Shown piece after piece: positions 1 through 18,123 of a stretch of 64,000 nt of DNA; position 1 is the first letter of the stretch, and each line of letters opens with the position of its first letter. The notes under the pieces are model-generated. The model saw only the letters and a list, made by a program, of their open reading frames with translations, searched no databases and was not told the origin of the DNA. The stretch is taken from NCBI GenBank assembly GCA_963769885.1, contig CAVYNH010000004.1, positions 140,495-204,494 on the forward strand, written 5' to 3'. The position numbers were made by a program, and so were the translations under genes. Source of the stretch: Methanobacteriota archaeon (lineage in GTDB: Archaea; Thermoplasmatota; E2; DHVEG-1).

Positions 1-191
1 AGCCCCTAAGGTTTTCCACCCATGGAGAATGACGATGATGAAAAAAAGCAAGATGAAACTTAGGATCACTCGCGTGTTCGAGAACGGGATGTAAAGGAGC
101 CAACCAAGAACAAGATACAATCCTATGACAGCAAGCACAAAGGTCATGATGATGTTAGAATTCATCTTTTGCATACGACCACGAAGGACTG

Positions 192-1460
192 TTATTTCAC
201 TCCTAATCTTTTATAGAACAGAGGAACATTATGACTCCTGCAGCTATGACAAAACTGAACAGATTTTTCAGGAGCTACAAACCCATCATCCAAATGATTT
301 GATAGAGAGGTATAATTTTGTAGCATGAAACAGTCTGTGGAAGGCACATTGAAGTTCGCATTCATTCGTCTCCAAATTACATGGATGTCTTCTTTGCGTG
401 CATTCCCAAATGAAAGAGGAGTAAACGAACAAGGACAGATGTTGCCGCTTGTGGAGACATGGAGGTATTGATATCCTGCGCAACACCCCATCACCTGTTT
501 GCTTTCCCGATACGGATAGGACAGCACTTTGAGGTGTTTGTTATTTTTATTGACCTTCTTTTGTATATGTGCCAGCTGCATCCTCTCATTCTCTGTAAGA
601 ATGACATCATGTTCTTCCATAATTTTTCCGACAGGGATCGGCTCAAGGATGAGCACCTCGTCTACCCTTTGTTTTTCAGCGAATTCGAGGAACTCCCAGA
701 TCTCCCCTGTTGCGATTCTCTCTTTTGTCGCTACGGTAGAAAGGCCGACGTATAATCCTGCATGCTTGGCATTTTTTATCCCCTCCAATGCTTGTTCAGA
801 GGATCCGTCGAAACTTCTCAGTGTGTCCTGAATCTTTTTATCGGTATGCTCTAGCCCAATCATCACTGCAAAAAGCCCTGCTTGTCTGAGGGCCTCTGCT
901 TTCTCCTTCGTCAAGCCGTAGCCTGTGGTGAACAAAACAACCGAGGATTTCTCGGTATCTATTTTTGAGATAATCTCACAGATATCGTTTCTTACGAGTG
1001 GTTCTCCGCCGGTCAATGCGATAACAGAGACTCCCAACTCCTGCAGTCTATCCACAATCTCTTCAGCATCCCGAGTTGACATGTCTTCTTCTTTTAAGTT
1101 ATGGAGATAACAATGCCAGCAGTGATACATGCATGTATTTGTGATGGAAAATGACGCATAGATGGGGATGACCTCGTGTCCTTGACTTGACCGTAATGCG
1201 GTAATCAGTCTATTAAATGCTCCACTTGGAAATGGGGGCAGATCAGAGGAAATGACGAACTTGCCGTCATGCAAGGTGAGCTTCTCATATCGTGAACGCA
1301 GGAGTAAATACAGGAGGAATTTTTTGGGGAATTGTGTGATGCTTTTTGTCGGTAAACTTTTAAACGCTTGATATCGAAGTCTCGTTTTTTCCCACATTGC
1401 TATGTAATCCCTAATTTTTTGTAAATACGAGGAATGCCACTTGAGGGACATCGTTGGCAC
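192..1460 (-). CDS. radical SAM enzyme with N-terminal ~95 aa extension and C-terminal twitch/SPASM-like Cys motifs (paralog 1)
   Basis: The CxxxCxxC motif is CMYHCWHCY at about aa 108. GGEPL is present. The C-terminal motif GCCAGYQYLHVSTSGNICPC and a CxxC are SPASM/twitch-like. It overlaps the 3' end of the upstream paralog, so the true start is probably an internal Met (1451 or 1397). Confidence 0.6.
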   Translation of the reverse strand: MPTMSLKWHSSYLQKIRDYIAMWEKTRLRYQAFKSLPTKSITQFPKKFLLYLLLRSRYEKLTLHDGKFVISSDLPPFPSGAFNRLITALRSSQGHEVIPIYASFSITNTCMYHCWHCYLHNLKEEDMSTRDAEEIVDRLQELGVSVIALTGGEPLVRNDICEIISKIDTEKSSVVLFTTGYGLTKEKAEALRQAGLFAVMIGLEHTDKKIQDTLRSFDGSSEQALEGIKNAKHAGLYVGLSTVATKERIATGEIWEFLEFAEKQRVDEVLILEPIPVGKIMEEHDVILTENERMQLAHIQKKVNKNNKHLKVLSYPYRESKQVMGCCAGYQYLHVSTSGNICPCSFTPLSFGNARKEDIHVIWRRMNANFNVPSTDCFMLQNYTSLSNHLDDGFVAPEKSVQFCHSCRSHNVPLFYKRLGVK

Positions 1461-2608
1461 ACCTCAAGAGATTTTTCATAGGAGAGAGGATATTCACCGT
1501 TTCCTATGTGTCTCATCAGTTTGTGGTTTTCCAGCATGAAACAGAAAGCACGTGGTTTTTGAAATAGGTGATTCATTTTTTGCCAGAGATCCTCGAGGGG
1601 TTCCTCATGAATGTTCCCGAAGATAAGTGGGACAAAATCGCATGGTCGGAGGTTTCCATCTGCATCAACATACACAAGACTATACCCTGCAGTGCATCCC
1701 TGGAATTCCTCACTTTCATAATAGGGGAATACCGATAGTTTTGGATACTTCTTGTATTTTCTGTTCGAATTTATTTGCTTATGAAATTCAATGAGCTGCC
1801 TTCGTTCGTCGGTACTCAAGACACAGGTATCGTCATTGAAGAGTTCACCAACTGGGGTCGGTTCAAACATCATGATTTCTTGAACAGAGAGGTTCTGGGC
1901 GGTTTCGAGCATCTTCCATTGTTCGTTGTTTTTTAATATATCCTTGGTAATGACACATGATACACCAACGTAGAGGCGTGCCTGTTGAGCATTTCTTACT
2001 CCGTTGATGAAATTGTCATATGCTCCTTTGTATCCTCTAAGGCGGTCATGAATTTCGGGTTTGTAATGATCCAAGCTTAGCATCACCCCGAAAAGACCCG
2101 CCTTTTTCAGCTCCCTGGCCTTTTCTTCTGTTAAACCATCGCCTGAGGTGAACACAAACACGGAGGAGCGATCATCGATACTGGCAATAATATCTACGAG
2201 ATCCTCTCGGAGAAGTGGTTCTCCCCCGGTGATAGAAAACAGATATGTTCCCATGTCTTGAAATTTTTGGATCGCATTAATTATCGTTGGAAGCGGTAAA
2301 TCTGTTCCGTTTTTTGGAGAGGCGCTGCAATGCCAACAGTGGTACCTGCAATGATGCGTGACGGCGATGTTGACGATCCCTGGGATGTTCACTCCCTCTA
2401 TTGCTCTGGTCCCTGCTTCAAAAAACCTGTCTAGGGCTTTACTTGGGTACGGGGGGAGATGGAGGGAAAAAAGAATCTTGTCATCAAAGGTGATGAATCT
2501 TTCATTTTTGAAAACGGCAAGGAGGCTTAAGACGGTTTTTTTTGGAATTTTTTTTATTTGTTTGTTACGCATCATTTTTAGTGAGGTGATGAGGAGAGAC
2601 GATTGCAT
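1400..2608 (-). CDS. radical SAM enzyme, twitch/SPASM-like (paralog 2 of tandem pair)
   Basis: Motifs are CRYHCWHC (CxxxCxxC), GGEPLL and GCTAGYSLVYVDADGNLRPC. The architecture is clearly the same as 192..1460. Confidence 0.6.
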   Translation of the reverse strand: MQSSLLITSLKMMRNKQIKKIPKKTVLSLLAVFKNERFITFDDKILFSLHLPPYPSKALDRFFEAGTRAIEGVNIPGIVNIAVTHHCRYHCWHCSASPKNGTDLPLPTIINAIQKFQDMGTYLFSITGGEPLLREDLVDIIASIDDRSSVFVFTSGDGLTEEKARELKKAGLFGVMLSLDHYKPEIHDRLRGYKGAYDNFINGVRNAQQARLYVGVSCVITKDILKNNEQWKMLETAQNLSVQEIMMFEPTPVGELFNDDTCVLSTDERRQLIEFHKQINSNRKYKKYPKLSVFPYYESEEFQGCTAGYSLVYVDADGNLRPCDFVPLIFGNIHEEPLEDLWQKMNHLFQKPRAFCFMLENHKLMRHIGNGEYPLSYEKSLEVCQRCPSSGIPRIYKKLGIT

Positions 2609-2664
2609 GGTGCTATCGCCAGCATTGTTGGCTATCCTATCTCTTTGTGTTATCTGAAAGAAAT

Positions 2665-2678
2665 CTTTATATAATAAT
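2665..2678 (+). promoter_or_regulatory. archaeal TATA-box-like element (ctttatataataat) about 20-30 nt upstream of the ATG at 2696, in the divergent intergenic region
   Basis: An AT-rich TTTATATA motif sits at the typical archaeal spacing for a leaderless or short-leader transcript. Confidence 0.3.
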
Positions 2679-2695
2679 CTTATCGATGTCTAGAT

Positions 2696-3388
2696 ATGAA
2701 TATTAAAATATTGATGTCAATCATAATAATTTTTTTAGTCATGGGGTTTGTCTTCATTATTTTTGGTTTTTCGTCCCATCAAACCATTCTTTCCCATTGG
2801 TTCATCATCGTGGACATCTGTATTCTTTTAGGTATCACAACAAAAATCATGGATCAGCTGATTGATGACATCAACCTGAAATCATATCGGTTGTGGGTCA
2901 TCCCGCTTGCCGTGTTTATCCCAGGTTCCATGGCGTACCTTGCATTGACAGAAGGCCCCGTCATCGGTATGGTAATCGGCACCGTGATCGGGTTAATCAT
3001 CGCCGGGAAAATAGATCATCCAGCGTACGTCGCAAGCATCATTTTGTTTATCGCCCTCATCTTATTTGCCTTCGTTTTGGGTTTCATTCATATCGAGGTG
3101 ACAACGTTTTACATTATCCCGGTGGCTGCAGCCGGCTCGTTTTTGGATGAGTTCGGGCATGAACGATGGCGAAGTAACAACAAAACTGTCACCTTCATTT
3201 TTCAGCACAGGCTTTTCCTGAAAACGTTTGCCTTTTTTGGGGTCGTCTTCGGGTTCGCTCTGCCGATTCAATTTATCGGATTTCTTTGTTTTGATATTTG
3301 TTACGATCTGGTCGACACAACGAGTCGATCTGAGGAGAAGAGCAAAAAGTATGTTCCCGCTGGGCTTTCTTCAAACGGAATGAAGTAA
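2696..3388 (+). CDS. polytopic integral membrane protein of unknown function
   Basis: A 230 aa ORF with about 6 hydrophobic helices, embedded between radical SAM genes. No recognisable catalytic motif. Confidence 0.5.
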   Translation: MNIKILMSIIIIFLVMGFVFIIFGFSSHQTILSHWFIIVDICILLGITTKIMDQLIDDINLKSYRLWVIPLAVFIPGSMAYLALTEGPVIGMVIGTVIGLIIAGKIDHPAYVASIILFIALILFAFVLGFIHIEVTTFYIIPVAAAGSFLDEFGHERWRSNNKTVTFIFQHRLFLKTFAFFGVVFGFALPIQFIGFLCFDICYDLVDTTSRSEEKSKKYVPAGLSSNGMK

Positions 3389-3401
3389 AACGAGGTTCAC
3401 A

Positions 3402-4700
3402 ATGCGGAATCCTTTTGTAAAGCCCATCGCGGCGTGGTACTCCAACCAATGCTCCAGGTGTGGCACCCCCCGCATCGAAGCTCTCCTGCGTAGTTATCAC
3501 GAAACAATAATCTGCCCAGAATGCAGTACGCGCCTTCTTTTCGGAAGCATGCTGTTCAAGATACTCATGAGGTCTATGAAAATAGACGATGTCGAGCTAA
3601 GCGAGTTATCCTCCGATGCTGAAGCGATGGCCTCTATCAACGCATTTTTGCGCAGTATCAGGAGCCAAGGGCGTCTCGCGATTGAATTCGGTATCCCAAT
3701 CTATGCGGTCTTTGATGTCACGAGCAAATGTAACCTTGCCTGTATCCATTGTTACGCCTCAGGGCAACAAGAGGAGTTACCGACGACAGCGGTGACTCGT
3801 ATCTTAGACAAGCTTGCTTACGCAGGCGTGGGGATGGTTGATTTTGGAGGAGGGGAGCCTCTCCTACGAGCAGATATCTTTGATATTTTGGCGCATTCAA
3901 AACACAAGGGGCTGTATACATCGATTTCAACCAATGGGGTACTCCTTGATGAGTTCTGTGCGAGGCGCTTGAAAGAACTTGGTATCGATCACGTCTGCGT
4001 CAGCCTCGATGGCGCAACACCAGAGACCCATGATCGCATCCGGAATAAAAAAGGAACGTACGAGGAAGCAATCAGAGGTATTAAGCACTGTCGCAACGCC
4101 GGGATATCGACACAGATTTCAACGGTGTTTATGAGGAGCAACATCGATGAATTAGAGGACCTTACCAGGCTCTTAAAAGGGCTTCGTGTCGATGGATGGT
4201 ATCTGTATGATTTCGTTCCCGCTGGACAAGGGAAAGAACTGCTTCAGGAGGTTCTCTCCCAAGAGCAACGCAAGCATCTCTTTGACTATTTGGCGGACAT
4301 CGCGCCTTCAAGCACGATGACGCTGAAACCCTATCCGTATCTAATAACGATCAACTCCGTCTCTTGTACGGATACATATTTCTATAAAAAATATGGGCGG
4401 CTCACCGAGTTTTTTAAAGGGTGTTTATCAGGGCGATGGGTCTGTCATATCTCGAGCAACGGAGACCTCCATCCGTGCCATCTTTTACCCCAGACGCTCG
4501 GGAATCTTACCCAAGAAACCATCGAAGAAATCTGGTTCAACAAGAAGAACCGTGTTCTGCAGGAACTACGAGAAAGACGATTGGTAAAGGGAACCTGTGG
4601 AGAATGCACCCATCGAGACGTGTGCGGCGGATGCCGGGCACAAGCATTCTGGAAAACAGGCGATTATCTTGAAGGGGATTGCTGCTGGATTAAAAATTAA
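3402..4700 (+). CDS. radical SAM/SPASM-domain enzyme with N-terminal zinc-ribbon
   Basis: An N-terminal CxxC...CxxC ribbon precedes CNLACIHCY (CxxxCxxC) and GGGEPLL. The C-terminal motifs GCLSGRWVCHISSNGDLHPC and CGECTHRDVCGGC are canonical SPASM. Confidence 0.65.
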   Translation: MRNPFVKPIAAWYSNQCSRCGTPRIEALLRSYHETIICPECSTRLLFGSMLFKILMRSMKIDDVELSELSSDAEAMASINAFLRSIRSQGRLAIEFGIPIYAVFDVTSKCNLACIHCYASGQQEELPTTAVTRILDKLAYAGVGMVDFGGGEPLLRADIFDILAHSKHKGLYTSISTNGVLLDEFCARRLKELGIDHVCVSLDGATPETHDRIRNKKGTYEEAIRGIKHCRNAGISTQISTVFMRSNIDELEDLTRLLKGLRVDGWYLYDFVPAGQGKELLQEVLSQEQRKHLFDYLADIAPSSTMTLKPYPYLITINSVSCTDTYFYKKYGRLTEFFKGCLSGRWVCHISSNGDLHPCHLLPQTLGNLTQETIEEIWFNKKNRVLQELRERRLVKGTCGECTHRDVCGGCRAQAFWKTGDYLEGDCCWIKN

Positions 4701-4811
4701 ATACGTTCAAGGAAAAAAATTACCTCCGAAGTGATAACCAATACCCTTCAATGTCGATACTGAAGATCTGTTATCATAAGATATATTAATGTCCAACTCA
4801 CTTATTTTTTA

Positions 4812-5873
4812 TTGATGACTTCTCGCGATGTTCAGATTTATGGTGCCGGCGTATCCGGCCTTGTTTCCGGAATCCATCTCGCAAGAAAAGGGTACCATGT
4901 CACGATCTATGAAAAAGAACAGAAAATAGGGGGGAGCATGCACTGTCATCCATCGGTTCAAATGACTCCGATGCATATGTACCAGATGGAAGAGTATGTC
5001 GGAATAAAATTGAAATCATGTTTCTCGGAATTACGTGAGTTCCTGGGGTATATCGGTCCCAAAAAACTTGTCTTTTCCACCAAAGATCTTTACGTGGTCG
5101 AACGAGGACCACAACCGTCATCCCTCGATCATTTTCTCTATGAAAAAGCGGTAGAAGAAGGTGTTGAGGTCAAATTTTCACATCCGCTTACCTCAGAAGA
5201 GTTGAAAAGCATCCCGGAATATTCGATCATCGCAACCGCGGGATATTCACAGATAGTAAAAGCGCTCCATCTTTCGTATGTGGCTTTCAAACAATTTGAC
5301 ACACACATCAAGACTGATCTTGAGAATGTTTCCATCGCATACTTCGGTGATTTTACCTCTGACTACGGGTATATTTCAACGAAAAACGGGCTTCTGTCCG
5401 CGCAGCTTTCAGGCCCGTTAAATCTTTCTTCAGAAAAGTTGCATCGGTTTATGAAGGTGGTACAAGAAACCAAGGGTATTGACCTGGACGGATGGTCCTC
5501 TATTATCTCCTATTTCCCGAAAAAAGCACGATTGTTTACATCCTTTGCGGGAAAAACTCTTGTGCTGGCTGGGGACGTTGCAGGCTTTTTAGATCCGTTT
5601 TTTGGGTTTGGGGCGACCGGTGCCCTGATGTCTGGGAAAATTGCTGCGATGGGCATCCTGTCGAAGCAGAAGGCGTTACAAAAATTTACACAATGCACCT
5701 CTCATCTCAACAAGGACCTTTTCGTTCACACGCTGTACTGGCATCTCCCTTTTAAAAAATTCATCCTCTCCCAAGTCATGAAACTTCAAGACACGCATCT
5801 CACGTTTCTCAAACGAAGCATCCCAGGGTTCACCAATGAAGAGTGGGTAAAGATTATTTCGAGTGTTGATTAA
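4812..5873 (+). CDS. FAD/NAD(P)-binding oxidoreductase (geranylgeranyl-reductase-like Rossmann protein)
   Basis: The N-terminal dinucleotide-binding motif is IYGAGVSGLVSGIHLA...YEKE. Length is 353 aa. Confidence 0.5.
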   Translation: MMTSRDVQIYGAGVSGLVSGIHLARKGYHVTIYEKEQKIGGSMHCHPSVQMTPMHMYQMEEYVGIKLKSCFSELREFLGYIGPKKLVFSTKDLYVVERGPQPSSLDHFLYEKAVEEGVEVKFSHPLTSEELKSIPEYSIIATAGYSQIVKALHLSYVAFKQFDTHIKTDLENVSIAYFGDFTSDYGYISTKNGLLSAQLSGPLNLSSEKLHRFMKVVQETKGIDLDGWSSIISYFPKKARLFTSFAGKTLVLAGDVAGFLDPFFGFGATGALMSGKIAAMGILSKQKALQKFTQCTSHLNKDLFVHTLYWHLPFKKFILSQVMKLQDTHLTFLKRSIPGFTNEEWVKIISSVD

Positions 5874-6180
5874 ATTTTATTTTATCTTAAAGGTCTCATT
5901 GTCTGGGCATTCATTATAAATAAAAAAAAACTGATTCTATTGAGTAAAATCTTTATTTAGAAAAAGAAAAAAGAAGGATTTTAGAGAGTAATGCAGGCGG
6001 ATTAAGAACGTGGTTTCTAAGCCGTTTGTTAAGACTTTCAACAGGAAGGAAAAAGTCTTAACCCCGACAGGAGCACATATTTTCCATAAAAAAACAATAT
6101 TGCTAGAGATTAGCACGAAGGTTGGGTTAGGTTTATATATCAGGAAAATCATGCTACATTATAACACGATTTTGACTGTT

Positions 6181-6228
6181 TTAGGGGTGGGGAACTGAAC
6201 AATAAGCACTCATGTCCGCCCCCGACAT
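6181..6228. repeat. conserved intergenic element, family A copy 1 (ttagg..gggaactgaacaataagcactcatgtccgcccccgacat), followed by a 7-bp GC hairpin at 6218..6250
   Basis: A near-identical copy lies at 9931..9977. The element shares the core cgcccccgacat with family B copies at 8781..8840 and 12146..12200. Confidence 0.6.
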
Positions 6229-6279
6229 TGACGAATCCTGAGGCGGGGGCTGAGAAGAGTATAGGGAGCGGTCGTACAT

Positions 6280-8604
6280 CTAAGAGGGTGCTATCCGGAT
6301 AAAGATAAGGAAAGCGTAACCGGCTGCGTTTTTAGTGATGGTGGGGATACCATCGGCGCAGACGGTGAAGGTGACGGTGAGGGGGCCGAAGGCGATGAAG
6401 GGGATGAAGGTTGCGGAAGCAGTTTTACCGGCGTCGATAGAGCTGATGTTGCCACATCGGAAGGTGCCAGAAAAGTTGAGCCAGGCTCCTTGGATGGTAT
6501 AGGTATAGACGATGTTGTTGGTAGTGCGGTTGCCGGGGTTGCTGAGGGTGGCTCGGAGTTGCATGAGGCCGCCTCTGATCTTGGTGATCTCGAGTTTGCC
6601 GCCTGCGGGGATAACATTCGCGGTGGTGGTATAAGGGAGGTAGTTGTGTTTGGTTACTGTGACGATCATGGTGCCGGTGGTGGTGGGTGCGACGGTGAAG
6701 GATACGATGCCTGAAATGCTAGTGGTGCCGACTTGGTAGACTTCAGTATTAAGAGTATCGCCTTTCCAGAGGCAGACGGTGGCACCTTCGATGGGGTTAT
6801 TGTTGCTGTCGGCGACGGTGACGTTGTAGGTGGAGGAGCCAACGGTGATACAGGATGGGTAGGTAACACGAAGCGTTCTTGGTGTTGCCGTCCAGATGGG
6901 TGTGCTAGGGTCGCCGAGGAGGGTGAGTTCGGTGTAGATGTATTGGTCGAGGTTGTCGCTGGAGATGCCGTCGTTCTTGTGATTTGAGAGGGCGGCGCCG
7001 ACCGTGTTTTGGTTGTGGGTAAAGATGGATCGAAAGAAGAGGCGGTCGAATTTGAGGCTGAGGCCGTTTTGGCTGCCTATATAGTACCAGCCGTAGCGGC
7101 TGTTGCCAATGAAGGCGATGCCGCCGCCGTGGGCGTTCCGGACAAAATGTTCGCCAATGCAAATATTCGCATCATATGCGCAGGGGTCGCAGCCCATGCT
7201 GTAGTAGATGCCTTGGCGTTGGGCGTTGGCGAGGCCGTCCATGTCGCCGCTGTCGATATACCAGCCGTGGTTGACCGACCCGGTGCCCATGGTGTAGATG
7301 CTGGAGTGGTCGGCGTGGTTCATGAGGTTCTGGCCGGCGTTGAGGGATTTGATGACGTTGTCGCGATGGTTGCCGCTTTCGCTGTCGTATACATGGGTCG
7401 TGTTCCAGCTGTGGGGGATGTAGGCGTCTTTAATGTTTTGTTTGCAGATCTCGACGTGGGTGCTGTTGTCGAGGTCGAAGCCGTACATGGCGGCGTTGGT
7501 GGCGAAGTTGTCGGCGGGGTGTTGTTCGTAGGCGAGGGTTTTGTTGATAAAGTTGCCGATCTGGCCGTTGCCGTCGCCGGAGCCGGTGACGCTGGCGCGG
7601 CCGACGTTGACTTCGATGGTCCAGTCTTCGTCGAAGTCAGCGTAGTAGGTGTCGTTGGGGACGGGGTCGGGGTCGACGGCGGGGAAGCTGTGGTAGTTGC
7701 AGGGGATGGTGCTGGTGTCGCCGCCGAGGAGGATATAGGTGGTGCCCCAATTGTCGTACACGTCTTTGGCGAAGGCGTTGATTTTCTGGTCCTTGCTGCC
7801 ATTGTAGCCGCTTTGGTTGTAGATCCAATCCGTGGTCATGATAATGGTGGGGATGCCGCATTGGGTGCGCCAGTCGGCGAGCGGTTGGAAGGCGTTGACC
7901 CAGTCGGGTTTGGTGATGATGACGTACTCGTAATGTCCGGGTGGGAGGCCTGTGGTGCGTGGTTTGGGGTTGTGTTGGAGGGCGATGTCGGGGGGGTTGA
8001 TGACTAGGTGTTGAACCTTGGCGATGCGTTGTTGGGTCTCGGTTGATGTGAGGCCGGTGGGGAGGTAGTCTCCGTAAGTATGGGTTGGCGTGCCGGTGAG
8101 GGTAATGGTGAGGCTGGTGGTGAGGGTGAGTGTTTTGTCGGCAGGGATGTAATGGATGGGGTAGATGGTGATGAGGGCGATGGCTTGACCTGCAAGGTCG
8201 GTCTCTGCGGTTAGTACGGCGGTCTGGGTTGGATAGGGTGTAGTGGAGTGGTAGGCTGTTTCGTCTGGTGATGTGAAGGTGTTGGTATCATCGTTGGTGG
8301 TGCGTGGTGTCTGTGTGGGCCAAATATTATAGGTGCCGATGAGGGGTTGGGTTCGTTGGTTGAGGATTTGGATGGCGGTGGCTTGAAGGTTGGGCGGGAG
8401 GGCTATTTTGAGGGTGATGGCGGGAAGGCTGGGTTTGCCTGGTTCGGTGGTGGTGCTGCCGTTTGTTGTGGTGATTTGGTCGTAGCCGTTGTATGTACTG
8501 AAGTCAAAGTCGTCGGATGTGAAGGTGATGGTGATTGTCTTGGTGGGGGTTGTGGTGGTTGCGGGTACGGTGGTCGTGAAGACGAGGCTGCCGATAATTA
8601 TCAA
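6280..8604 (-). CDS. secreted C25 (gingipain)-like cysteine peptidase with Thr-rich N-terminal linker
   Basis: A signal/TM and TTTTPTKT linker precede motifs YILLGGDTSTIPC, a His in MNHADHSS and a Cys in YYSMGCDPCAYD, which are C25-like. Closest paralog in window is 16082..18034. Confidence 0.55.
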   Translation of the reverse strand: MIIIGSLVFTTTVPATTTTPTKTITITFTSDDFDFSTYNGYDQITTTNGSTTTEPGKPSLPAITLKIALPPNLQATAIQILNQRTQPLIGTYNIWPTQTPRTTNDDTNTFTSPDETAYHSTTPYPTQTAVLTAETDLAGQAIALITIYPIHYIPADKTLTLTTSLTITLTGTPTHTYGDYLPTGLTSTETQQRIAKVQHLVINPPDIALQHNPKPRTTGLPPGHYEYVIITKPDWVNAFQPLADWRTQCGIPTIIMTTDWIYNQSGYNGSKDQKINAFAKDVYDNWGTTYILLGGDTSTIPCNYHSFPAVDPDPVPNDTYYADFDEDWTIEVNVGRASVTGSGDGNGQIGNFINKTLAYEQHPADNFATNAAMYGFDLDNSTHVEICKQNIKDAYIPHSWNTTHVYDSESGNHRDNVIKSLNAGQNLMNHADHSSIYTMGTGSVNHGWYIDSGDMDGLANAQRQGIYYSMGCDPCAYDANICIGEHFVRNAHGGGIAFIGNSRYGWYYIGSQNGLSLKFDRLFFRSIFTHNQNTVGAALSNHKNDGISSDNLDQYIYTELTLLGDPSTPIWTATPRTLRVTYPSCITVGSSTYNVTVADSNNNPIEGATVCLWKGDTLNTEVYQVGTTSISGIVSFTVAPTTTGTMIVTVTKHNYLPYTTTANVIPAGGKLEITKIRGGLMQLRATLSNPGNRTTNNIVYTYTIQGAWLNFSGTFRCGNISSIDAGKTASATFIPFIAFGPLTVTFTVCADGIPTITKNAAGYAFLIFIRIAPS

Positions 8605-8780
8605 AATTAAAGGGCAGCACAGGTGGTTTGTTTGAATACTTTTATTCCCCCTTTTTCTGGTGTTGAGAAGAGTTATACTTGCATGGTACTTTTAAAGGTT
8701 TTCCTGAAGTGTGCCTGAGGCTTCTCTTGAGTATGCCTGGGGGAAATATCCGGTGTAATATGTCAACTCAAATTGAAAGG

Positions 8781-8840
8781 ACCTAGAACGAAATCTGAAC
8801 CCCAGGGACTTATTCTCGCCCCCGACATCTTGTTGTACTA
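8781..8840. repeat. conserved intergenic element, family B copy 1 (aatctgaaccccagggacttattctcgcccccgacatcttgttgtactacgattcg)
   Basis: It aligns at about 75% over about 55 nt with 12146..12200. Both copies lie 110-170 nt upstream of secreted-protein genes. Confidence 0.55.
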
Positions 8841-8999
8841 CGATTCGCCTTTTCGGTGGAGGATTTGTTAGCACCTTGATATGCTCCGACCTGTAGATGC
8901 CGTCAACAGATGTTGTTATAAATAGTATAAATATAATTGAAATAGAGAAATATTTTTAAGAAGATGTCTTATACATAACAATGAAGAGGGAGGAAATCC

Positions 9000-9800
9000 A
9001 TGGCGAGATATCACCTTTTGAAGAAAAGTATAGCTGTTGGCATTATTAGCCTGTTCATTGGAGGATTAGCGACCTCAAGCGTCACCGTCAGGTGCGTGCA
9101 CGCATCTCAGGAACACACTCTTGTGACTGTGACTTCGGAGGTATGCGGTGCCCCAGGACTTGCCACACATACAGCCCTGATAACGGCACAGCAGTACCAG
9201 GAACTCGAGCAACAACTCGAAGCCATAAAGGAACGGCTAACACGCGGACTCTCGTATCAACAGACCATCGCAAGCATCCAGGAAATCGTGCGTGCGCTCA
9301 AGACCTATCAATTATTGCCACAAGGGGCGTCCATTGACCAAGTCCAACAGGCGATCGCAGGCCCATACGAGAATCCAACAGCGTTTATGGTGAGAGGAAA
9401 GGTAGCCCAGAGGAACGAGTTTTCCAGTAATCAAAGCAATTCCCTTTGTCTCATCAGCGGTACCGTTCAGGACGGGTCTGTCACTGGACCACTGGGGCTT
9501 GCGGGAGCAGCGATTGCGGCGTTAGGATTGATCCTCAAACAGAACCTCACAGCGGCCATCGGATTACTGCTGTTGGGTATAAGTCATTATATCACGACAC
9601 TTTCCCCCGTCTCACTCTTGCAACGAGTGACAATAAAATCAGGCAACATCACATCGGTCGGACTCAACGGTGTACAAATTTTCAATATCAGCAGCGAAAC
9701 TGGCGAAGGGGTGATATCCGGCTTCTCTGGGATTAAAATTACACGAGATGACACAAGCCAGATGAGCCTCCTTGGGTTCGCACTTGGCATCAAAGTATAG
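9000..9800 (+). CDS. membrane-anchored hypothetical protein (paralog of 57259..58107)
   Basis: An N-terminal TM anchor is followed by a conserved block VTVTSEVCGAPG...ITAQQYQELEQQLEAIKERL...YQLLPQGAS, matching VEVTTQACGIQG...LTRQQYQNLQQYL...YGLLPKGMS in the distant paralog. Confidence 0.5.
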   Translation: MARYHLLKKSIAVGIISLFIGGLATSSVTVRCVHASQEHTLVTVTSEVCGAPGLATHTALITAQQYQELEQQLEAIKERLTRGLSYQQTIASIQEIVRALKTYQLLPQGASIDQVQQAIAGPYENPTAFMVRGKVAQRNEFSSNQSNSLCLISGTVQDGSVTGPLGLAGAAIAALGLILKQNLTAAIGLLLLGISHYITTLSPVSLLQRVTIKSGNITSVGLNGVQIFNISSETGEGVISGFSGIKITRDDTSQMSLLGFALGIKV

Positions 9801-9930
9801 AACCAGAGGCTGCGCGCGGCGTCCGAGCGCTATCTGACAGGAAGCGCTTCTTGCCGTACATCGCACCAGCAGCTGAAAGCACCGATTTGCAACTGGTTCT
9901 CCTTAAACCAATTAAAAAAACCTGTGGTCA

Positions 9931-9977
9931 TTAGGAAAGGGAACTGAACAATACACACTCATGTCCGTCCTCGACAT
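9931..9977. repeat. conserved intergenic element, family A copy 2
   Basis: ttaggaaagggaactgaacaatacacactcatgtccgtcctcgacat differs from the 6181..6228 copy at only a few positions. Confidence 0.6.
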
Positions 9978-10086
9978 ATTTCATAATTAATTTGTTGTTT
10001 TTCCTTGGTGTTCTCCTGGTACAATTAAATATTACTATTCCAATACTCATAAATAGAGCAAGGACTTATAATGTTGAGGGGTTGCT

Positions 10087-11940
10087 ATGGCTCATCACGA
10101 CAAATCCCGGATCCTCATTTTATTAACGGCCCTAGTCATGATCAGTGCCTGCAGCGCCCAAGGATCATCACCAAAAGCCTCCAATATGGGTGAAGCCGGA
10201 GGGAAAGTTTTTGACGGGCAGATCCTGTTCTCCCCCTATTATACGACGACCACCTATTTGATCGATAGCAGCGGGACAGTGAATCATACGTGGCCAAGCG
10301 CGTATCGTCCCTTCACGGAGCCCTATTGGCTGGGGAATGGGACCATCCTTCGCCCCATCAGCTCCGGCGGCGGAGGCGTGCAAGAAATCCGCTGGGATGG
10401 GACCCTGGCATGGGACTATCGGTATACCGTCTCCGGGTGCACCTGCCACCATGACATCAAGTACCTCCCGAACGGAAACGTGCTCATGATCGTGTGGGAG
10501 ACAAAAACGAAGAACGAGGCCATTGCCGCCGGTCGGAATCCGGCGACCATCTCAGGGAGCACATTTACCTCCGATAAAATCATCGAGGTGCAGCCGACCG
10601 GCCCGACAAGCGGGACGGTCGTCTGGGAGTGGCACGTCTGGGACCATCTCATCCAGGATTTCGACGCCTCAAAGGCGAATTACGGGGTGGTCGGCGATCA
10701 CCCTGAACTGATTGACGTGAATTTTGGCGACGATTTCGTCGGCGACTGGCTGCATACCAATTCCGTTGATTACGACCCCCAGTTCAATCAACTCCTCATT
10801 GACAGCCATAACTTTGACGAGGTCTGGGTCATCGACCATAACACGACCACGGCGGAGGCCGCGGGCCACAGCGGTGGGCACTACGGGCATGGCGGAGACT
10901 TGCTCTACCGATGGGGAAATCCGCAAGCGTACCGACGGGGCACCTCCAGTGATCAAAAGTTATACTGGCAGCATGACGCCTCATGGATAGAACCTGGGTA
11001 TCCCGGTGCGGGACATGTCCTGGTGTTCAACAACGGCTACAACCGCCCGGGCACGAAATATTCGACCGTGGATGAGTTCGCGCCGCCGATCGATTCTAAC
11101 GGTGTGTATTATCTCGCGCCAGGGTCTTCCTATGGGCCTGCTGATTTCTTCTGGGACTTTACCGCGACTCCGCCCACCTCGCTGTATTCAACCGTGTTCG
11201 GCGGCGCCCTGCGCCTCACGAACGGGAATACGTTGATCTGCGATGGGATCCCGGGGAAGTTCTTGGAGGTGACCCCGGATAAGACCGTGGTCTGGCAGTG
11301 GACGAACCCGTATCCGAGTGCAGGTCAGAACAGCGTGTTCAAGATCGATTATATTCCCCATGATATCCCACCAAGTCCACCCCAAATAACAGGCCCGACG
11401 ACGGGAAAAGTCGGGGTTGCGGCACAGTATAATTTCACGGCCATTGACCCTGACGGGGAGGACATCTTCTACTGCATCGATTGGGGCGACCAGACGACTC
11501 CTACCTGGCTTGGCCCCTACCACTCTGGCCATGAGATACCCATGAATCACACCTGGGCTCAGACAGGGTTGTACTCGATCAGGGCGAAGGCGAAGGATGG
11601 CCACGGGGAAAGCGACTGGTCGGACCCGTTCGTGGTCACTATTATTGGTTCGATGCTCGAAACCAACATCGTGGGAGGCATTGGCGTCAAGGCAGTCATC
11701 GCGAACACGGGGGCATCGGACGCCATCGGTGTGCAATGGAAAATCAACGTTGAAGGCGGTGTCGCTGGGAGTATCAATAAGACGATGACCGGCACAGTGG
11801 ACATCCCGTCGCAACAATCGAAGACGGTGAGGACAGGCGTGTTCTTTGGGTTTGGGCCAATTAGCATAACAGTGATCGTCGATGGCGAGGAAACGACTGC
11901 AGAAGGAGCATATCTATTCGTCTTTTCGACGATAAAATGA
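10087..11940 (+). CDS. secreted lipoprotein-like aryl-sulfotransferase (ASST)-like beta-propeller protein with C-terminal PKD-variant (IDWGD) domain
   Basis: A signal peptide with a Cys precedes propeller-type repeats (HHDIKYLPNGN, WEWHVWDH, LHTNSVDYDP). The C-terminal module is DPDGEDIFYCIDWGDQTT..WLGPYHSG..HTW..GLYSIRAKAKDGHGESDWS. The ASST assignment is tentative. Confidence 0.45.
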   Translation: MAHHDKSRILILLTALVMISACSAQGSSPKASNMGEAGGKVFDGQILFSPYYTTTTYLIDSSGTVNHTWPSAYRPFTEPYWLGNGTILRPISSGGGGVQEIRWDGTLAWDYRYTVSGCTCHHDIKYLPNGNVLMIVWETKTKNEAIAAGRNPATISGSTFTSDKIIEVQPTGPTSGTVVWEWHVWDHLIQDFDASKANYGVVGDHPELIDVNFGDDFVGDWLHTNSVDYDPQFNQLLIDSHNFDEVWVIDHNTTTAEAAGHSGGHYGHGGDLLYRWGNPQAYRRGTSSDQKLYWQHDASWIEPGYPGAGHVLVFNNGYNRPGTKYSTVDEFAPPIDSNGVYYLAPGSSYGPADFFWDFTATPPTSLYSTVFGGALRLTNGNTLICDGIPGKFLEVTPDKTVVWQWTNPYPSAGQNSVFKIDYIPHDIPPSPPQITGPTTGKVGVAAQYNFTAIDPDGEDIFYCIDWGDQTTPTWLGPYHSGHEIPMNHTWAQTGLYSIRAKAKDGHGESDWSDPFVVTIIGSMLETNIVGGIGVKAVIANTGASDAIGVQWKINVEGGVAGSINKTMTGTVDIPSQQSKTVRTGVFFGFGPISITVIVDGEETTAEGAYLFVFSTIK

Positions 11941-12145
11941 AAAAAGGTTCAGTCATCCGTTGACCCGTTGGAATCTGGGAAGCATCTGAAGTCTCAGGGG
12001 CTCCTTCCGATTTCTGGCATGCTTCGATTTTTGGGGAATAATTTCAAGCGTACCCAATATCGCAATATTCAATAGATCACTTTTAAACCCTGCAAGGCAT
12101 ATTATACTTCGAGCTAGGTAAGCGCATTCATCTGTTAATCCTCAA

Positions 12146-12200
12146 AGAATCTGAACCCAGGGCTTAGCTCTTGCCCCCTACTCTCTAGTACAATTATCAA
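12146..12200. repeat. conserved intergenic element, family B copy 2
   Basis: aatctgaacccagggcttagctcttgccccctactctctagtacaattatc aligns with 8781..8840. Confidence 0.55.
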
Positions 12201-12290
12201 ATTTTATTACCTGTGTGAATCCGGTTCGTAGATAGGTAGATTAATAAATGAAATCTTCTATTTTAATTAACAACATACGGGGGATACTTC

Positions 12291-14234
12291 ATGAACAAGA
12301 AATGGTTCAGTCTCGTGGTATTGTTCCTATTATGCACGACGAGCTATGTCTGCGTCACCGCCAGCCAACCAGCAAGCTCTGACCCAGGAACGTCCTATAG
12401 GCTTCGTCTACACACTAAGGATGCACCTCGAGTCGCCGCTCAATTCATCAAAGAAGGATACGACGTCCTGGATGGAACCGTCACCGAAAACTCTTTTGAA
12501 CTCATCTGCCAGCCGCCTGTCTATCAGCGATTGCAGGCGCTGCAATACAACATGGATGTGCTTGCTCGTGGACAACCATTCAGCGAGATCCAACGCGAAC
12601 TGAACCAAGGGTCGACGCTTCCAGTGCCCCCCGGGTATCCAACGCTGGCTGAAATCCTCAATCAACTGAACACTACCGCGGCCGCGAACCCCTCCATCTG
12701 CAAGGTCTACAACCTCACGACAACCTACGGCACCAACGTGACCTATGAAGGCAGACATATGTGGGCGTTGAAGATCTCGGACAACGTCGCCGTCGATGAA
12801 GACGAGCCGAACTTCCTCAACGTCGGCAACTACCATGCCCGTGAAATCGTCACCCCGGTGCTCATCCTCTACGCCATTAACCAAATGGTCAGCGGCTATG
12901 GGACGAACCCGACAATCACCGGCATCGTCGACAATTATGAGCTCTGGTATGCTCCCACATGGAACCCCGACGGCTACAACTACGTCTACAACGTCGACAA
13001 CATGTGGCGGAAGAACCGCCATCCCTACCCGCCTGGTGTCGGTGTCGACCTGAACCGGAACTATAATATCGGCTGGAACGTCGCTGGCAGCACCGATCCT
13101 ACCTCTGAGGAGTACCGGGGTCCATTTGTTGCCTCGGAATCCGAGACGCAGACGATGGTCGCCTTCAACAACAACCGGCATTTCGCGAAAGTCCTGGATT
13201 ACCACTCCTCCGGCCGCGAGACCCTCTATGGTTACCTGACGTTGACCCACCCCTTCATCAGCTGGCTGCAGTCTGAGGCGGTGCAACTCTCGACACAGTC
13301 TGGGTATGGTGGTTCGGTTCGCCCGCCAAGTTCCGAAGGTGAAAACTACGAATGGCAGCTTGCCTGCAACGGCTCGTATTCGAACCTGATCGAGACCGCG
13401 ACCGATTTCCAGCCGTCCTACGCCAGCGCGCAGGCAGAGGCGGTCATGGTGTGGCCCGGGCAGTTGTGGATGCTGCAGCGGCCAATCTCCGTCAGCGGCC
13501 ATGTGACGAACGCGGTGACGGGCGCGCCCGTCGTCGCCTCCATCGTCCTTCAAGGCGTGAACTTCCAGAACGGGGAGTATTACCGCAGCGAGCATCGCTT
13601 TGGACGGTACCATCTTTTCCTGCCTCCAGCGACGTATACCCTCAATATTTCTGCCCCCGGGTACTTCTCGCAGACGCAGCAGGTGACGGTCACGCAGTCT
13701 AGTGCTGAAATCATCGAGATTCACCTTGCTCCGCTGAACGCGCCGCCGTCCAAGCCTGATATTACAGGTCCTACCTCTGGGCTTACCGACGAGCAGTTGG
13801 AGTACCGGTTCTCCTCCATTGACCCCGATAACGACACGATTTCTTACTCGATTGATTGGGGCGATGGGACCGCGCCGGTCTGGCTTGGCCCGTATCCATC
13901 CGGGTTCGAGGCGAATACGACGCATCAGTGGGTCTCTGCGGGAACGTACCCGGTGAAGGTCAAGGCCAAGGACCAAGTGGGTGCCGAGAGCAACTGGTCC
14001 ACGTCATTGTACGTGCATATCAACGCCTTCAAGCGGGCATTCGTCTTCGGGCTCATCTCGGAGAAGAACCAGACTAGTGAACTGATTACCTTCAAGGCGA
14101 AGTTCCTCCTGGTGCTGCCGTCGACGTCGATGCTGTACCATGCCGGTCAGACCATCGAGGTCTCCACTGATGGGAAGCTTGGCTTCATCGGTGAACATTT
14201 CGCCGCCGGATTCTTCAAGACATTGGTTCTTTGA
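12291..14234 (+). CDS. secreted zinc carboxypeptidase, peptidase family M14, with carboxypeptidase-regulatory-like and PKD-variant C-terminal domains
   Basis: A signal peptide is followed by the HxxE motif YHAREIV, NPDGY and DLNRNY, which are M14 signatures. A transthyretin-like block (SGHVTNAVTGAPV...) follows. The C-terminal module is IDPDNDTISYSIDWGDGTAPVWLGPYPSG...VKVKAKD. Confidence 0.7.
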   Translation: MNKKWFSLVVLFLLCTTSYVCVTASQPASSDPGTSYRLRLHTKDAPRVAAQFIKEGYDVLDGTVTENSFELICQPPVYQRLQALQYNMDVLARGQPFSEIQRELNQGSTLPVPPGYPTLAEILNQLNTTAAANPSICKVYNLTTTYGTNVTYEGRHMWALKISDNVAVDEDEPNFLNVGNYHAREIVTPVLILYAINQMVSGYGTNPTITGIVDNYELWYAPTWNPDGYNYVYNVDNMWRKNRHPYPPGVGVDLNRNYNIGWNVAGSTDPTSEEYRGPFVASESETQTMVAFNNNRHFAKVLDYHSSGRETLYGYLTLTHPFISWLQSEAVQLSTQSGYGGSVRPPSSEGENYEWQLACNGSYSNLIETATDFQPSYASAQAEAVMVWPGQLWMLQRPISVSGHVTNAVTGAPVVASIVLQGVNFQNGEYYRSEHRFGRYHLFLPPATYTLNISAPGYFSQTQQVTVTQSSAEIIEIHLAPLNAPPSKPDITGPTSGLTDEQLEYRFSSIDPDNDTISYSIDWGDGTAPVWLGPYPSGFEANTTHQWVSAGTYPVKVKAKDQVGAESNWSTSLYVHINAFKRAFVFGLISEKNQTSELITFKAKFLLVLPSTSMLYHAGQTIEVSTDGKLGFIGEHFAAGFFKTLVL

Positions 14235-14327
14235 AGAAAAAAATTTGACTCGAAGGATTGATACCCTTAGATCTAAATGGATAGAATTCATAATGAATTA
14301 ACACCCTGAGCGAGGGAGGGAGAACGT

Positions 14328-15974: not shown

Positions 15975-15976
15975 GA

Positions 15977-16065: not shown

Positions 16066-16081
16066 TGCGGGGGTGATCTCG

Positions 16082-18034: not shown

Positions 18035-18123
18035 CCCTTGTACTGAGATACAGGTAGTTGAAGGAGATATAAATATTTATGTGAGAGATAAAATCTAGGG
18101 AGGGGGGATGTTTTATATTTCTC

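What the first reader, a model, noticed from the sequence alone, without database searches (positions are those of the whole stretch)
125..6280. Low-GC island encoding three radical-SAM SPASM/twitch enzymes, a polytopic membrane protein and a flavoprotein: candidate peptide- or lipid-modification system
Three radical SAM enzymes (192-1460, 1400-2608, 3402-4700) each carry about 90-100 residues upstream of the CxxxCxxC core. That position and size match the recognition-element domains of RiPP maturases. Each also has a C-terminal SPASM/twitch auxiliary-cluster motif. The first two are tandem paralogs with overlapping reading frames. The third has an extra N-terminal zinc ribbon and a complete SPASM (CxxCx5CxxC). 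They flank a 230-aa multi-TM protein and are followed by a flavin/NAD-binding oxidoreductase. The block is about 42% GC against about 60% in the neighbouring chromosome and ends abruptly at 6200, so it looks horizontally acquired. No precursor-peptide ORF is evident in the track. A short unannotated peptide gene, or a lipid or cofactor substrate, is plausible.
Basis: partly seen in the sequence, partly recalled or inferred. Interest (0 to 1): 0.8.

Follow-up and report, generated by a model that had tools for sequence, protein, structure and literature searches.

The report
Archaeal membrane-lipid tailoring gene cluster
This low-GC block in a sediment Thermoplasmata archaeon is most likely a horizontally acquired gene cluster that modifies the isoprenoid chains of archaeal membrane lipids, not a peptide-maturation system, and this combination of enzymes has not been described.

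Summary
The genes are real, with corrections. The first two radical SAM (rSAM) genes do not overlap. The cluster also runs off the left edge of the window into a CruF-like isoprenoid hydratase gene.

About 55 related Thermoplasmata loci share a fixed core: CruF-like hydratase | orphan membrane protein, rSAM-C, (dehydrogenase), GGR-like flavoprotein. The tandem rSAM-A/B pair is an optional insert.

rSAM-C has an AhbD-like SPASM core plus a ~109-aa N-terminal zinc-ribbon extension. This is the architecture published for GMGT synthase (Gms), which cross-links tetraether lipid chains.

rSAM-A/B belong to a large uncharacterised twitch-type family (327 species). Its usual neighbours are a SAM methyltransferase and isoprenoid enzymes.

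I found no RRE domain, no conserved small ORF, and no conserved protease or exporter, so the RiPP reading is not supported and the lipid reading is.

GC3 is 0.45-0.54 in the cluster against 0.75-0.90 in housekeeping genes, which supports horizontal acquisition.

The product is unknown. My best guess is cross-linked, hydroxylated or otherwise tailored GDGT/archaeol chains. I found no paper describing this enzyme combination.

The parts
1..174 (-). 5' end (58 codons) of a CruF-like / Caroten_synth integral-membrane isoprenoid hydratase gene. The rest lies beyond the window edge.
   Evidence: The translation MQKMNSNIIM... matches the L001 orthologue at 66% identity. The full-length orthologue hits Pfam PF04240 at 85.7 bits (cut-off 25) and NCBIfam CruF at 69 bits, below the equivalog cut-off of 154.7. 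The gene lies next to the cluster in 24 of 29 long loci.
192..1397 (-). rSAM-A: a 401-aa radical SAM enzyme with one twitch-like auxiliary cluster and a family-specific basic N-terminal domain of about 78 aa (PPFPS motif). It is an accessory gene of the cluster.
1400..2608 (-). rSAM-B: a 402-aa tandem paralogue of rSAM-A (37% identity) from the same family.
   Evidence: It always occurs together with rSAM-A, apart from L131, a 2-kb fragment where only A was detected.
2609..2695 (.). Divergent intergenic region with a TATA-like box (CTTTATATAA, about 2666-2675) roughly 25 nt upstream of the membrane-protein ATG.
   Evidence: Read directly from the sequence. The 3' half is conserved in L001, L007 and L010. 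Promoter function is inferred.
2696..3388 (+). Orphan polytopic membrane protein (230 aa, about 6-8 helices). It is always immediately upstream of rSAM-C and is probably its membrane partner or the lipid-handling subunit.
3402..4700 (+). rSAM-C: a 432-aa enzyme with an AhbD-like SPASM radical SAM core and a 109-aa N-terminal zinc-ribbon/helical extension. This is the Gms-like (GMGT synthase-like) architecture.
   Evidence: NCBIfam AhbD 249 bits over residues 104-426, below the cut-off of 500. It has a full SPASM Cys set. Its nearest relatives outside its own clade are 450-500-aa AhbD-like proteins with colinear 104-150-aa N-extensions, many carrying CxxC..CxxC. With the core alone, the top 8 non-self hits are all N-extended. 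Gms is defined as AhbD-like plus a ~100-aa COG4001 extension in PMC11214058.
4815..5873 (+). Divergent geranylgeranyl-reductase-like FAD flavoprotein (352 aa).
   Evidence: Pfam NAD_binding_8/DAO. NCBIfam GG-red-SF 53.9 bits, below the cut-off of 158.8. It aligns to a bona fide GGR (L003, 204.8 bits) over 283 aa with E 9e-11, including the GDxAG..P..G.G motif, but the YxWxFP motif is degenerate. The family is narrow. It is a core member of the cluster.

Best explanation
This is a horizontally acquired tailoring cluster for isoprenoid membrane lipids in a sediment-dwelling, peptide-degrading Thermoplasmata archaeon. The substrate is most probably GDGT or archaeol chains.

Shown:
- The conserved functional unit is CruF-like hydratase | orphan membrane protein, rSAM-C, (Sacchrp_dh-type dehydrogenase in about half of relatives, absent here), GGR-like flavoprotein.
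- The rSAM-A/B pair is an optional add-on.

Inferred mechanism:
1. rSAM-C is a Gms-like enzyme. Its N-terminal extension would form a lipid pocket. It abstracts a hydrogen from an unactivated carbon of a saturated isoprenoid chain, which leads to a C-C cross-link (GMGT-like) or a desaturation.
2. The adjacent membrane protein, probably co-transcribed with it, extracts or presents the lipid.
3. The GGR-like flavoprotein sets or removes a specific C=C.
4. The CruF-like protein adds water across an isoprenoid double bond to give a tertiary alcohol.
5. rSAM-A/B add a further radical modification whose nature is unknown.

The logic parallels the published Ted (rSAM desaturase) + Hgs (hydratase) pair that makes hydroxy-GDGTs, but uses non-homologous proteins.
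For: 1. Host and lipids. Homologues are named Thermoplasmata/Thermoplasmatales. The window encodes G1P dehydrogenase above its equivalog cut-off (472 > 413), so the host makes archaeal ether lipids.
2. Synteny. The core order is conserved in about 55 loci with unrelated flanks.
3. CruF-like partner. The orthologue passes the Pfam Caroten_synth threshold. To my knowledge, all characterised members of that family hydrate isoprenoid C=C bonds.
4. Flavoprotein. It aligns with a true GGR. A distant homologue in L139 sits beside a B12-rSAM, with an AttH hydratase gene about 3 kb away. That is the Ted/Hgs gene pairing.
5. rSAM-C. It has the architecture that defines Gms, an AhbD-like core plus a ~100-aa N-extension.
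6. rSAM-A/B relatives.
   - In L003 the neighbours are a bona fide GGR, a CruF-like protein and a methyltransferase.
   - In L054/L069/L083 a lycopene-cyclase-domain protein is nearby.
   - In 15 mainly planctomycete loci a DGGGPS-like UbiA is nearby.
Against: - No verified Gms sequence was available, so placement of rSAM-C inside the Gms clade is untested. It is only 30-38% identical to the N-extended relatives, and its core scores only slightly better against them than against short AhbD-like proteins (250 against 216 bits).
- Those N-extended relatives are themselves only presumed to be Gms-like.
- The flavoprotein and the CruF-like protein both fall below the NCBIfam equivalog cut-offs.
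- The membrane protein has no detectable relatives or fold match.
- No lipid-synthesis gene (tes, grs, GGGPS) is conserved next to the cluster.
- No chemistry has been observed.
- Characterised CruF enzymes act on carotenoids, not on membrane core lipids.
Confidence: 0.6

Rival explanations
1. The cluster tailors a non-membrane-core isoprenoid, such as a carotenoid-like pigment, a polyprenyl quinone side chain or a polyprenol. The model is the haloarchaeal bacterioruberin genes (CrtD desaturase, LyeJ prenyltransferase/hydratase, CruF hydratase), with the rSAMs replacing O2-dependent steps.
For: - The characterised CruF-family members I know of act on carotenoid end groups, and the orthologue passes the Caroten_synth threshold.
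- The flavoprotein N-terminus weakly hits CrtD/CrtI models.
- Lycopene-cyclase-domain proteins lie near rSAM-A-family genes in some Thermoplasmatales.
- The membrane protein carries two invariant DxxxD motifs, as prenyl-diphosphate enzymes do.
Against: - No phytoene synthase or desaturase is conserved near the cluster, and none was seen among the window ORFs scanned.
- The hosts come from anoxic sediments.
- The Gms-like architecture of rSAM-C points to tetraether substrates.
Confidence: 0.2
2. The cluster modifies a tetrapyrrole or another cofactor. rSAM-C would act like AhbD/NirJ (propionate to vinyl, or side-chain removal), followed by hydration, reduction and dehydrogenation of the side chain, analogous to BchF/BchC/BchP chemistry.
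For: The best curated matches for rSAM-C are AhbD (249 bits) and NirJ2 (237 bits). Of its 42 nearest relatives, 41 hit the AhbD model at E<=1e-60, the best at 8.9e-151.
Against: - The scores are half the equivalog cut-off of 500.
- rSAM-C carries the N-terminal extension that distinguishes lipid-acting Gms from AhbD.
- No heme, siroheme or chlorophyll gene is conserved nearby.
- The other conserved partners belong to isoprenoid-acting families.
Confidence: 0.1
3. This is a RiPP maturation system. The three rSAM enzymes would use their N-terminal extensions as RRE-like leader-binding domains to modify an unannotated precursor peptide.
For: - SPASM/twitch domains are present.
- The N-terminal extensions are about the size of an RRE.
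Against: - No PqqD/RRE hit even at E<=10.
- The N-terminal topology is alpha-alpha-alpha-beta-beta-alpha.
- The SkfB alignment excludes both N-termini.
- Intergenic space is only 2-111 nt apart from 5874-6279. The small ORFs there are not conserved beyond one close relative, and no small-ORF family recurs in 29 loci.
- No conserved peptidase or ABC exporter.
- The conserved partners are lipid-type enzymes.
Confidence: 0.05

Closest known systems
GMGT synthase Gms (Garcia et al., PNAS 2024, PMC11214058)
   Same: Like Gms, rSAM-C is an AhbD-like SPASM radical SAM enzyme with an N-terminal extension of about 100 aa that AhbD lacks. It is found in Thermoplasmata. Its nearest relatives are N-extended AhbD-like proteins from Bathyarchaeota, Thermoprotei, Methanofastidiosum and Thermotogota, a taxonomic spread similar to that reported for Gms.
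   Different: - It is only 30-38% identical to those relatives, and the extension is shorter.
- It could not be compared with a verified Gms.
- Published gms genes cluster with gmm or grs (B12-rSAMs). This gene is instead always fused in an operon with an orphan membrane protein, a CruF-like hydratase and a GGR-like flavoprotein.
Ted + Hgs (B12-rSAM tetraether desaturase plus AttH-like hydratase that make OH-GDGTs; bioRxiv 10.1101/2025.10.20.683597)
   Same: The gene-level logic is the same: a radical SAM enzyme acting on saturated isoprenoid chains is genetically coupled to an isoprenoid double-bond hydratase. A distant homologue of the flavoprotein lies beside a B12-rSAM, with an AttH gene about 3 kb away.
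   Different: The proteins are not homologous. Here the rSAM is SPASM-type with no B12 domain, and the hydratase is an integral-membrane CruF/Caroten_synth protein, not AttH.
Haloarchaeal bacterioruberin genes crtD-lyeJ-cruF and cyanobacterial CruF (from my own knowledge of the literature)
   Same: A CruF-family hydratase is combined with a FAD-dependent enzyme and a polytopic membrane protein that carries Asp-rich motifs.
   Different: - Those clusters contain no radical SAM enzymes.
- The membrane protein here is not a UbiA-family member.
- The flavoprotein is GGR-like rather than CrtD/CrtI-like over its full length.
SkfB / SuiB / PqqE-type SPASM-twitch RiPP maturases
   Different: The N-terminal domain is not an RRE. 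There is no precursor peptide. The genomic partners are methyltransferases and isoprenoid enzymes.
Tetraether synthase Tes / GDGT-MAS
   Different: The Tes model scores only 54.9 bits against a cut-off of 450. Domain organisation and length also differ.

Membership tests
RiPP radical SAM maturase with RRE | PqqD-like RiPP recognition element (beta3-alpha3 winged helix) fused to, or encoded beside, the rSAM | tested here: not met
   No Pfam hit to PqqD or any wHTH family for ten N-terminal segments at E<=10. The AF2 topology is H-H-H-E-E-H. The SkfB alignment starts at the rSAM core. RRE-Finder itself was not available.
RiPP radical SAM maturase with RRE | Adjacent precursor-peptide gene | tested here: not met
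   All ORFs of >=20 aa in 1-6300 were listed. The only free intergenic ORFs (5937-6279) are not conserved beyond one close relative. No small-ORF family recurs in 29 syntenic loci.
RiPP radical SAM maturase with RRE | SPASM/twitch auxiliary Fe-S domain | tested here: met
   Pfam SPASM scores above cut-off in all three proteins. This feature is not specific to RiPP enzymes.
GMGT synthase (Gms) | AhbD-like SPASM radical SAM core | tested here: met
   AhbD HMM 249 bits, E 6e-74, over residues 104-426. The full CxxCx5CxxC SPASM set is present.
GMGT synthase (Gms) | N-terminal extension of about 100 aa (COG4001) that AhbD lacks | tested here: inconclusive
   A 109-aa extension is present. It is colinear with the 104-150-aa extensions of the nearest relatives, including CxxC..CxxC. 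No COG4001 profile was available, so the COG assignment itself was not checked.
GMGT synthase (Gms) | Falls within the well-supported clade that contains verified Gms (PF0647, X802_RS00105), separate from AhbD | not testable with these tools
   Verified sequences could not be retrieved. The only proxy is that, with the core alone, the top 8 non-self hits are all N-extended proteins (217-250 bits against 216 for the best short one).
Heme/heme d1 enzymes AhbC, AhbD, NirJ; MoaA; anSME | Score at or above the curated equivalog cut-off | tested here: not met
   rSAM-C scores 249 for AhbD against a cut-off of 500. rSAM-A and rSAM-B score at most 120 against 500, and for MoaA 109 against 325.
CruF / Caroten_synth (PF04240) | Pfam gathering threshold; NCBIfam CruF equivalog threshold | tested here: inconclusive
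   The full-length orthologue (L001) scores 85.7 against the Pfam cut-off of 25, so that test is met. It scores 69 against 154.7 for the CruF equivalog, so that test is not met. Only 58 codons of the gene lie in the window.
Geranylgeranyl reductase family (TIGR02032) | Subfamily cut-off and the catalytic YxWxFP motif | tested here: not met
   53.9 bits against a cut-off of 158.8. The motif position reads DYGYIST. The fold-level relationship is supported by a 283-aa alignment to a true GGR (E 9e-11).
UbiA prenyltransferases (for the 230-aa membrane protein) | PF01040 match / NDxxDxxxD motif / UbiA fold | tested here: not met
B12-dependent lipid rSAMs (Grs, Gmm, Ted, GDGT methylases) | N-terminal B12-binding domain | tested here: not met
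   None of the three proteins hits PF02310.
Tetraether synthase Tes | NF045702 equivalog cut-off | tested here: not met
   54.9 bits against 450 for rSAM-A. Tes is not among the top matches for rSAM-B or rSAM-C.

The most novel reading that the evidence does not exclude
The core four genes (Gms-like rSAM-C, its obligatory orphan membrane partner, a CruF-like hydratase and a GGR-like flavoprotein) may encode a previously undescribed route to a tailored tetraether. Candidates are a bridged and/or hydroxylated GDGT made anaerobically from finished membrane lipids in uncultured sediment Thermoplasmata.

rSAM-A/B may represent a new lipid-modifying twitch-rSAM family. It is widespread (>300 species across Bacteria and Archaea), and its bacterial members work with a dedicated SAM methyltransferase. 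Both would give gene markers for orphan sedimentary lipid biomarkers.
Probability: 0.35. Interest if true: 0.7.

Novelty: new variant of a known kind. Interest (0 to 1): 0.55.

Why it matters
Archaeal tetraether lipids and their modified forms (GMGTs, OH-GDGTs, unsaturated or methylated GDGTs) are used as palaeoclimate and environmental proxies. For many sedimentary variants, neither the producers nor the enzymes are known.

Every lipid-tailoring enzyme identified so far has been a single rSAM, or an rSAM with one partner. This cluster links a Gms-like rSAM to a hydratase, a reductase-like flavoprotein, an entirely uncharacterised membrane protein and two further rSAMs, and it occurs in abundant uncultured sediment Thermoplasmata.

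The idea can be tested directly with the expression hosts already used for Gms and Ted/Hgs. It would also assign a first functional context to a large unannotated rSAM family (327 species), and it would correct a tempting mis-annotation of these proteins as RiPP maturases.

Tried and rejected
- **RRE hypothesis.** Rejected on Pfam scans of N-terminal segments at E<=10, the AF2 topology and the PDB sequence alignment ranges.
- **Precursor peptide.** I listed all ORFs of >=20 aa, ran tblastn and blastn of the intergenic ORFs against syntenic loci, and clustered ORFs of >=60 aa in 29 loci. Nothing is conserved.
- **N-terminal domain of rSAM-A/B related to the Gms-like extension.** hhalign probability is 1.7%, so rejected.
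- **rSAM-A/B as bacterial Mss or as Tes.** The Tes HMM score is far below its cut-off. Mss could not be tested because no sequence was available.
- **Known RNA in the block.** No Rfam match at E<=1 in 1-6400.
- **Retrieving the source contig beyond the left edge.** This failed because there was no exact record.
- **Contexts of two N-extended relatives of rSAM-C.** One lies next to a CDP-alcohol phosphatidyltransferase and the other was uninformative.
- **Supplementary Gms accession lists.** Not held.

Full report
**1. Observation**

The five ORFs exist as described.
- All three radical SAM (rSAM) proteins pass the Pfam Radical_SAM and SPASM thresholds.
- The 353-aa protein has an N-terminal FAD/NAD Rossmann motif.
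- The 230-aa protein has no Pfam or NCBIfam match.

Three corrections are needed.
- All 120 listed homologues of the first rSAM cover only 95% of the ORF, and most are about 401 aa. Its real start is therefore the ATG at 1397, 2 nt after the stop of the second rSAM. The same spacing is seen in the relative L001. The two genes abut and do not overlap.
- Positions 1-174 on the minus strand encode the first 58 residues of another gene (MQKMNSNIIM...). It is orthologous to a 290-aa Caroten_synth/CruF-like membrane protein that follows rSAM-A in relatives. The cluster is therefore truncated by the window edge.
- Across 120 family members, rSAM-A/B conserve CxxxCxxC plus only four C-terminal cysteines. 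This indicates one auxiliary cluster (twitch-like). rSAM-C has the full SPASM set and an N-terminal C17xxC20...C38xxC41 zinc ribbon.

**2. Composition**

- GC is 0.443 in 1-5873 against 0.555 in the rest of the window.
- At third codon positions the contrast is much sharper. GC3 is 0.45-0.54 for the cluster genes and 0.75-0.90 for housekeeping genes such as G1P dehydrogenase, MetK, lipoyl synthase, the EF-Tu-family GTPase and NMD3.
- In relatives, the cluster has 0.27-0.44 GC. It is below its flanks only in the higher-GC genomes, and the flanking genes are never the same.
- This fits acquisition from a lower-GC Thermoplasmata donor.
- The window has at least two other atypical patches, so this genome is a mosaic.

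**3. Host**

- Named homologues come from Thermoplasmata/Thermoplasmatales MAGs.
- The window encodes a G1P dehydrogenase above its equivalog cut-off, so the host makes archaeal ether lipids.
- It also encodes a battery of secreted peptidases: C25 (twice), M14, C1 and M48.

**4. Comparative anatomy**

I scanned metagenomes with the membrane protein and genomes with the rSAM-A family. This gave about 55 syntenic loci.
- The invariant core is: CruF-like (divergent) | membrane protein, rSAM-C, [Sacchrp_dh-type dehydrogenase on the opposite strand in about half; absent here], flavoprotein.
- The rSAM-A/B pair is inserted between the CruF-like gene and the membrane protein in only about 15 of 45 informative loci.
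- The membrane protein and rSAM-C are always adjacent (13 nt apart here).
- No other gene family recurs, and no small ORF recurs.

**5. The RiPP reading**

- The N-terminal segments of ten family members give no PqqD/RRE or winged-helix hit at E<=10.
- The AF2 model of rSAM-A (pLDDT 93.9) has an N-terminal domain ordered helix-helix-helix-hairpin-helix, with the conserved PPFPS loop. An RRE has the order beta3-alpha3.
- phmmer aligns rSAM-A residues 75-336 to SkfB residues 105-366, so SkfB's N-terminal ~104 residues are left out.
- Intergenic space inside the cluster is 2, 87, 13 and 111 nt.
- The only free small ORFs, at 5937-6279, are not conserved beyond partial similarity in one close relative.
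- No protease or exporter is conserved.
- I therefore reject the RiPP reading (about 5%).

**6. What the parts are**

*a. rSAM-C*
- Its best curated matches are AhbD (249 bits) and NirJ2, about half of the equivalog cut-offs.
- An exhaustive HMMER search of 1.84 billion representatives finds only its own clade above 50% identity.
- The next hits are 450-500-aa AhbD-like proteins at 30-38% identity that also align over the N-terminus.
- These proteins carry 104-150-aa N-terminal extensions, many with CxxC..CxxC. The extensions are colinear with that of rSAM-C.
- They come from Bathyarchaeota, Methanofastidiosum, Thermoprotei, Aigarchaeota, Methermicoccus and Thermotogota.
- With the core alone, the eight best non-self hits are all N-extended (217-250 bits). 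The best short AhbD-like protein scores 216.
- Garcia et al. (PMC11214058) identified GMGT synthase Gms as exactly this kind of protein. It is an AhbD homologue (36% identity) with a 100-aa N-terminal extension (COG4001) that is predicted to form a lipid pocket. It is widespread in Bathyarchaeota, TACK, Thermoplasmata and some bacteria.
- rSAM-C is therefore Gms-like in architecture. I could not obtain a verified Gms sequence, so clade membership is untested.

*b. The CruF-like protein*
- It passes the Pfam Caroten_synth threshold (85.7 against 25) but not the CruF equivalog cut-off.

*c. The flavoprotein*
- It belongs to a narrow family.
- It aligns over 283 residues with a bona fide geranylgeranyl reductase (E 9e-11). 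It keeps the GDxAG..P..G.G motif but has lost YxWxFP.
- A distant homologue in an actinomycete contig lies beside a B12-rSAM, with an AttH hydratase gene about 3 kb away.
- That pairing was shown in 2025 to make hydroxy-GDGTs: Ted desaturase plus Hgs hydratase.

*d. The membrane protein*
- It is restricted to this cluster (131 hits, all with >=47% identity).
- It has two invariant DxxxD motifs and a DExxH motif.

*e. rSAM-A/B*
- They belong to a large family found in 327 of the species-representative genomes scanned. It spans Planctomycetota, Omnitrophota, Kiritimatiellia, Verrucomicrobiota, gut Alphaproteobacteria, Clostridia, Thermotogae, Thermoplasmatota and Heimdallarchaeota.
- I clustered the neighbouring genes in these loci:
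  - A class-I SAM methyltransferase lies immediately adjacent in 51 loci.
  - A DGGGPS-like UbiA prenyltransferase is present in 15 loci, mainly Planctomycetota.
- In Thermoplasmata the partners are a true GGR, a CruF-like protein and a methyltransferase in L003, or a lycopene-cyclase-domain protein.
- Some members are fused to the methyltransferase.
- The family-specific N-terminal 45 residues carry a mean net charge of +6.3. This is compatible with binding an anionic membrane surface, which is an inference.
- This N-terminal domain is unrelated to the Gms-like extension.

**7. Mechanism**

Shown:
- a conserved operon that couples a Gms-like SPASM rSAM to an obligatory membrane protein, a CruF-family hydratase and a GGR-like flavoprotein;
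- an optional twitch-rSAM pair;
- a compositionally foreign origin.

Inferred:
- The substrate is the isoprenoid chain of archaeal membrane lipids.
- rSAM-C performs a radical H-abstraction that leads to a cross-link or a desaturation.
- The flavoprotein adjusts a double bond.
- The CruF-like protein hydrates it.
- rSAM-A/B add a further modification.

I give the general lipid-tailoring reading about 0.6. The specific chemistry is open.

The rivals are tailoring of a carotenoid, quinone or polyprenol (about 0.2), modification of a tetrapyrrole or cofactor (about 0.1) and RiPP maturation (about 0.05).

**8. Novelty**

- Full-text searches found no paper that links CruF-type proteins with rSAM enzymes in archaea, and none that describes this cluster.
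- The 2026 review of lipid-modifying rSAM enzymes lists Tes, Mss, Gms, Grs, Gmm, Cds, HpnH/J/P/R, Jaw5 and the ladderane candidates only.
- The cluster is therefore a new variant of a known kind: archaeal rSAM-based lipid tailoring. It includes one orphan membrane protein and one large uncharacterised rSAM family.

Noticed in passing
window 5987-6071 (intergenic, downstream of the flavoprotein gene); L001 4327-4411: An 87-nt stretch is 78% identical between the window and L001 at the same position downstream of the flavoprotein gene. It contains an 11-bp perfect hairpin (GTTAAGACTTT...AAAGTCTTAAC). Folding z-scores are weak (-1.1 to -2.1), and there is no Rfam match. It could be a terminator or 3' element, or a small RNA.
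   Followed up: partly
window 6280-19707: This is a run of secreted or surface hydrolase genes: two C25 gingipain-like peptidases with Thr/Pro-rich regions, an arylsulfotransferase, an M14 carboxypeptidase, a C1 papain-like peptidase with PKD domains and an M48 peptidase. GC skew is very strong here. It suggests a detrital-protein-degrading lifestyle.
   Followed up: partly
window 57259-59291 and tRNA-Leu(CAA) 59532-59617; also 41900-42505: Two further compositionally foreign patches were seen. GC3 is 0.38-0.50 at 57.2-59.3 kb, next to the only tRNA gene, and 0.25 at 41.9-42.5 kb, against about 0.8 in housekeeping genes. The ORFs there have no Pfam hits. They may be integrated elements, one of them at the tRNA.
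   Followed up: no
window 47336-48679 (+): A B12-binding + Radical_SAM + DUF4070 protein (447 aa) has the domain architecture of the Grs/Gmm/Ted class of archaeal lipid rSAMs. It has normal host GC. Its best NCBIfam hits (BchE, HpnR, HpnJ) are far below their cut-offs.
   Followed up: partly
window 29074-30171 (+), 20403-21413 (-), 30614-31858 (-): The G1P dehydrogenase is above its equivalog cut-off, which marks the archaeal lipid backbone. A UbiA-family prenyltransferase of unclear subtype is present. The S-adenosylmethionine synthetase is built from Pfam's three S-AdoMet_synt domains, which as far as I recall is the bacterial/eukaryotic MetK type rather than the archaeal type.
   Followed up: partly
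loci L007-L086 (genome-contig scan): The rSAM-A/B family occurs in 327 species across many anaerobic bacterial phyla and Asgard archaea. It almost always has an abutting ~290-aa BioC/UbiE-like methyltransferase and is sometimes fused to it. In Planctomycetota a DGGGPS-like UbiA and two small membrane proteins accompany it. In some Clostridia and candidate-phyla (Saccharibacteria, Paceibacterota) loci a second methyltransferase and an alpha/beta hydrolase are present. The module is conserved and uncharacterised.
   Followed up: partly
L139 (Actinomycetota, JAZDFZ010000015) 5938-12992: A distant homologue of the flavoprotein lies in a block with a second FAD protein, a flavodoxin-like protein, a rubredoxin, a B12-rSAM and an AttH-like hydratase. 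This may be a bacterial counterpart of the archaeal Ted/Hgs desaturase-hydratase pair.
   Followed up: no
L010 5461-6674; L117 6395-7478: In two relatives one cluster gene is split into two frames: rSAM-A in UBA33 and rSAM-C in an SMTZ contig. This is either a frameshift pseudogene or an assembly error. It hints that the cluster is dispensable in some lineages.
   Followed up: no
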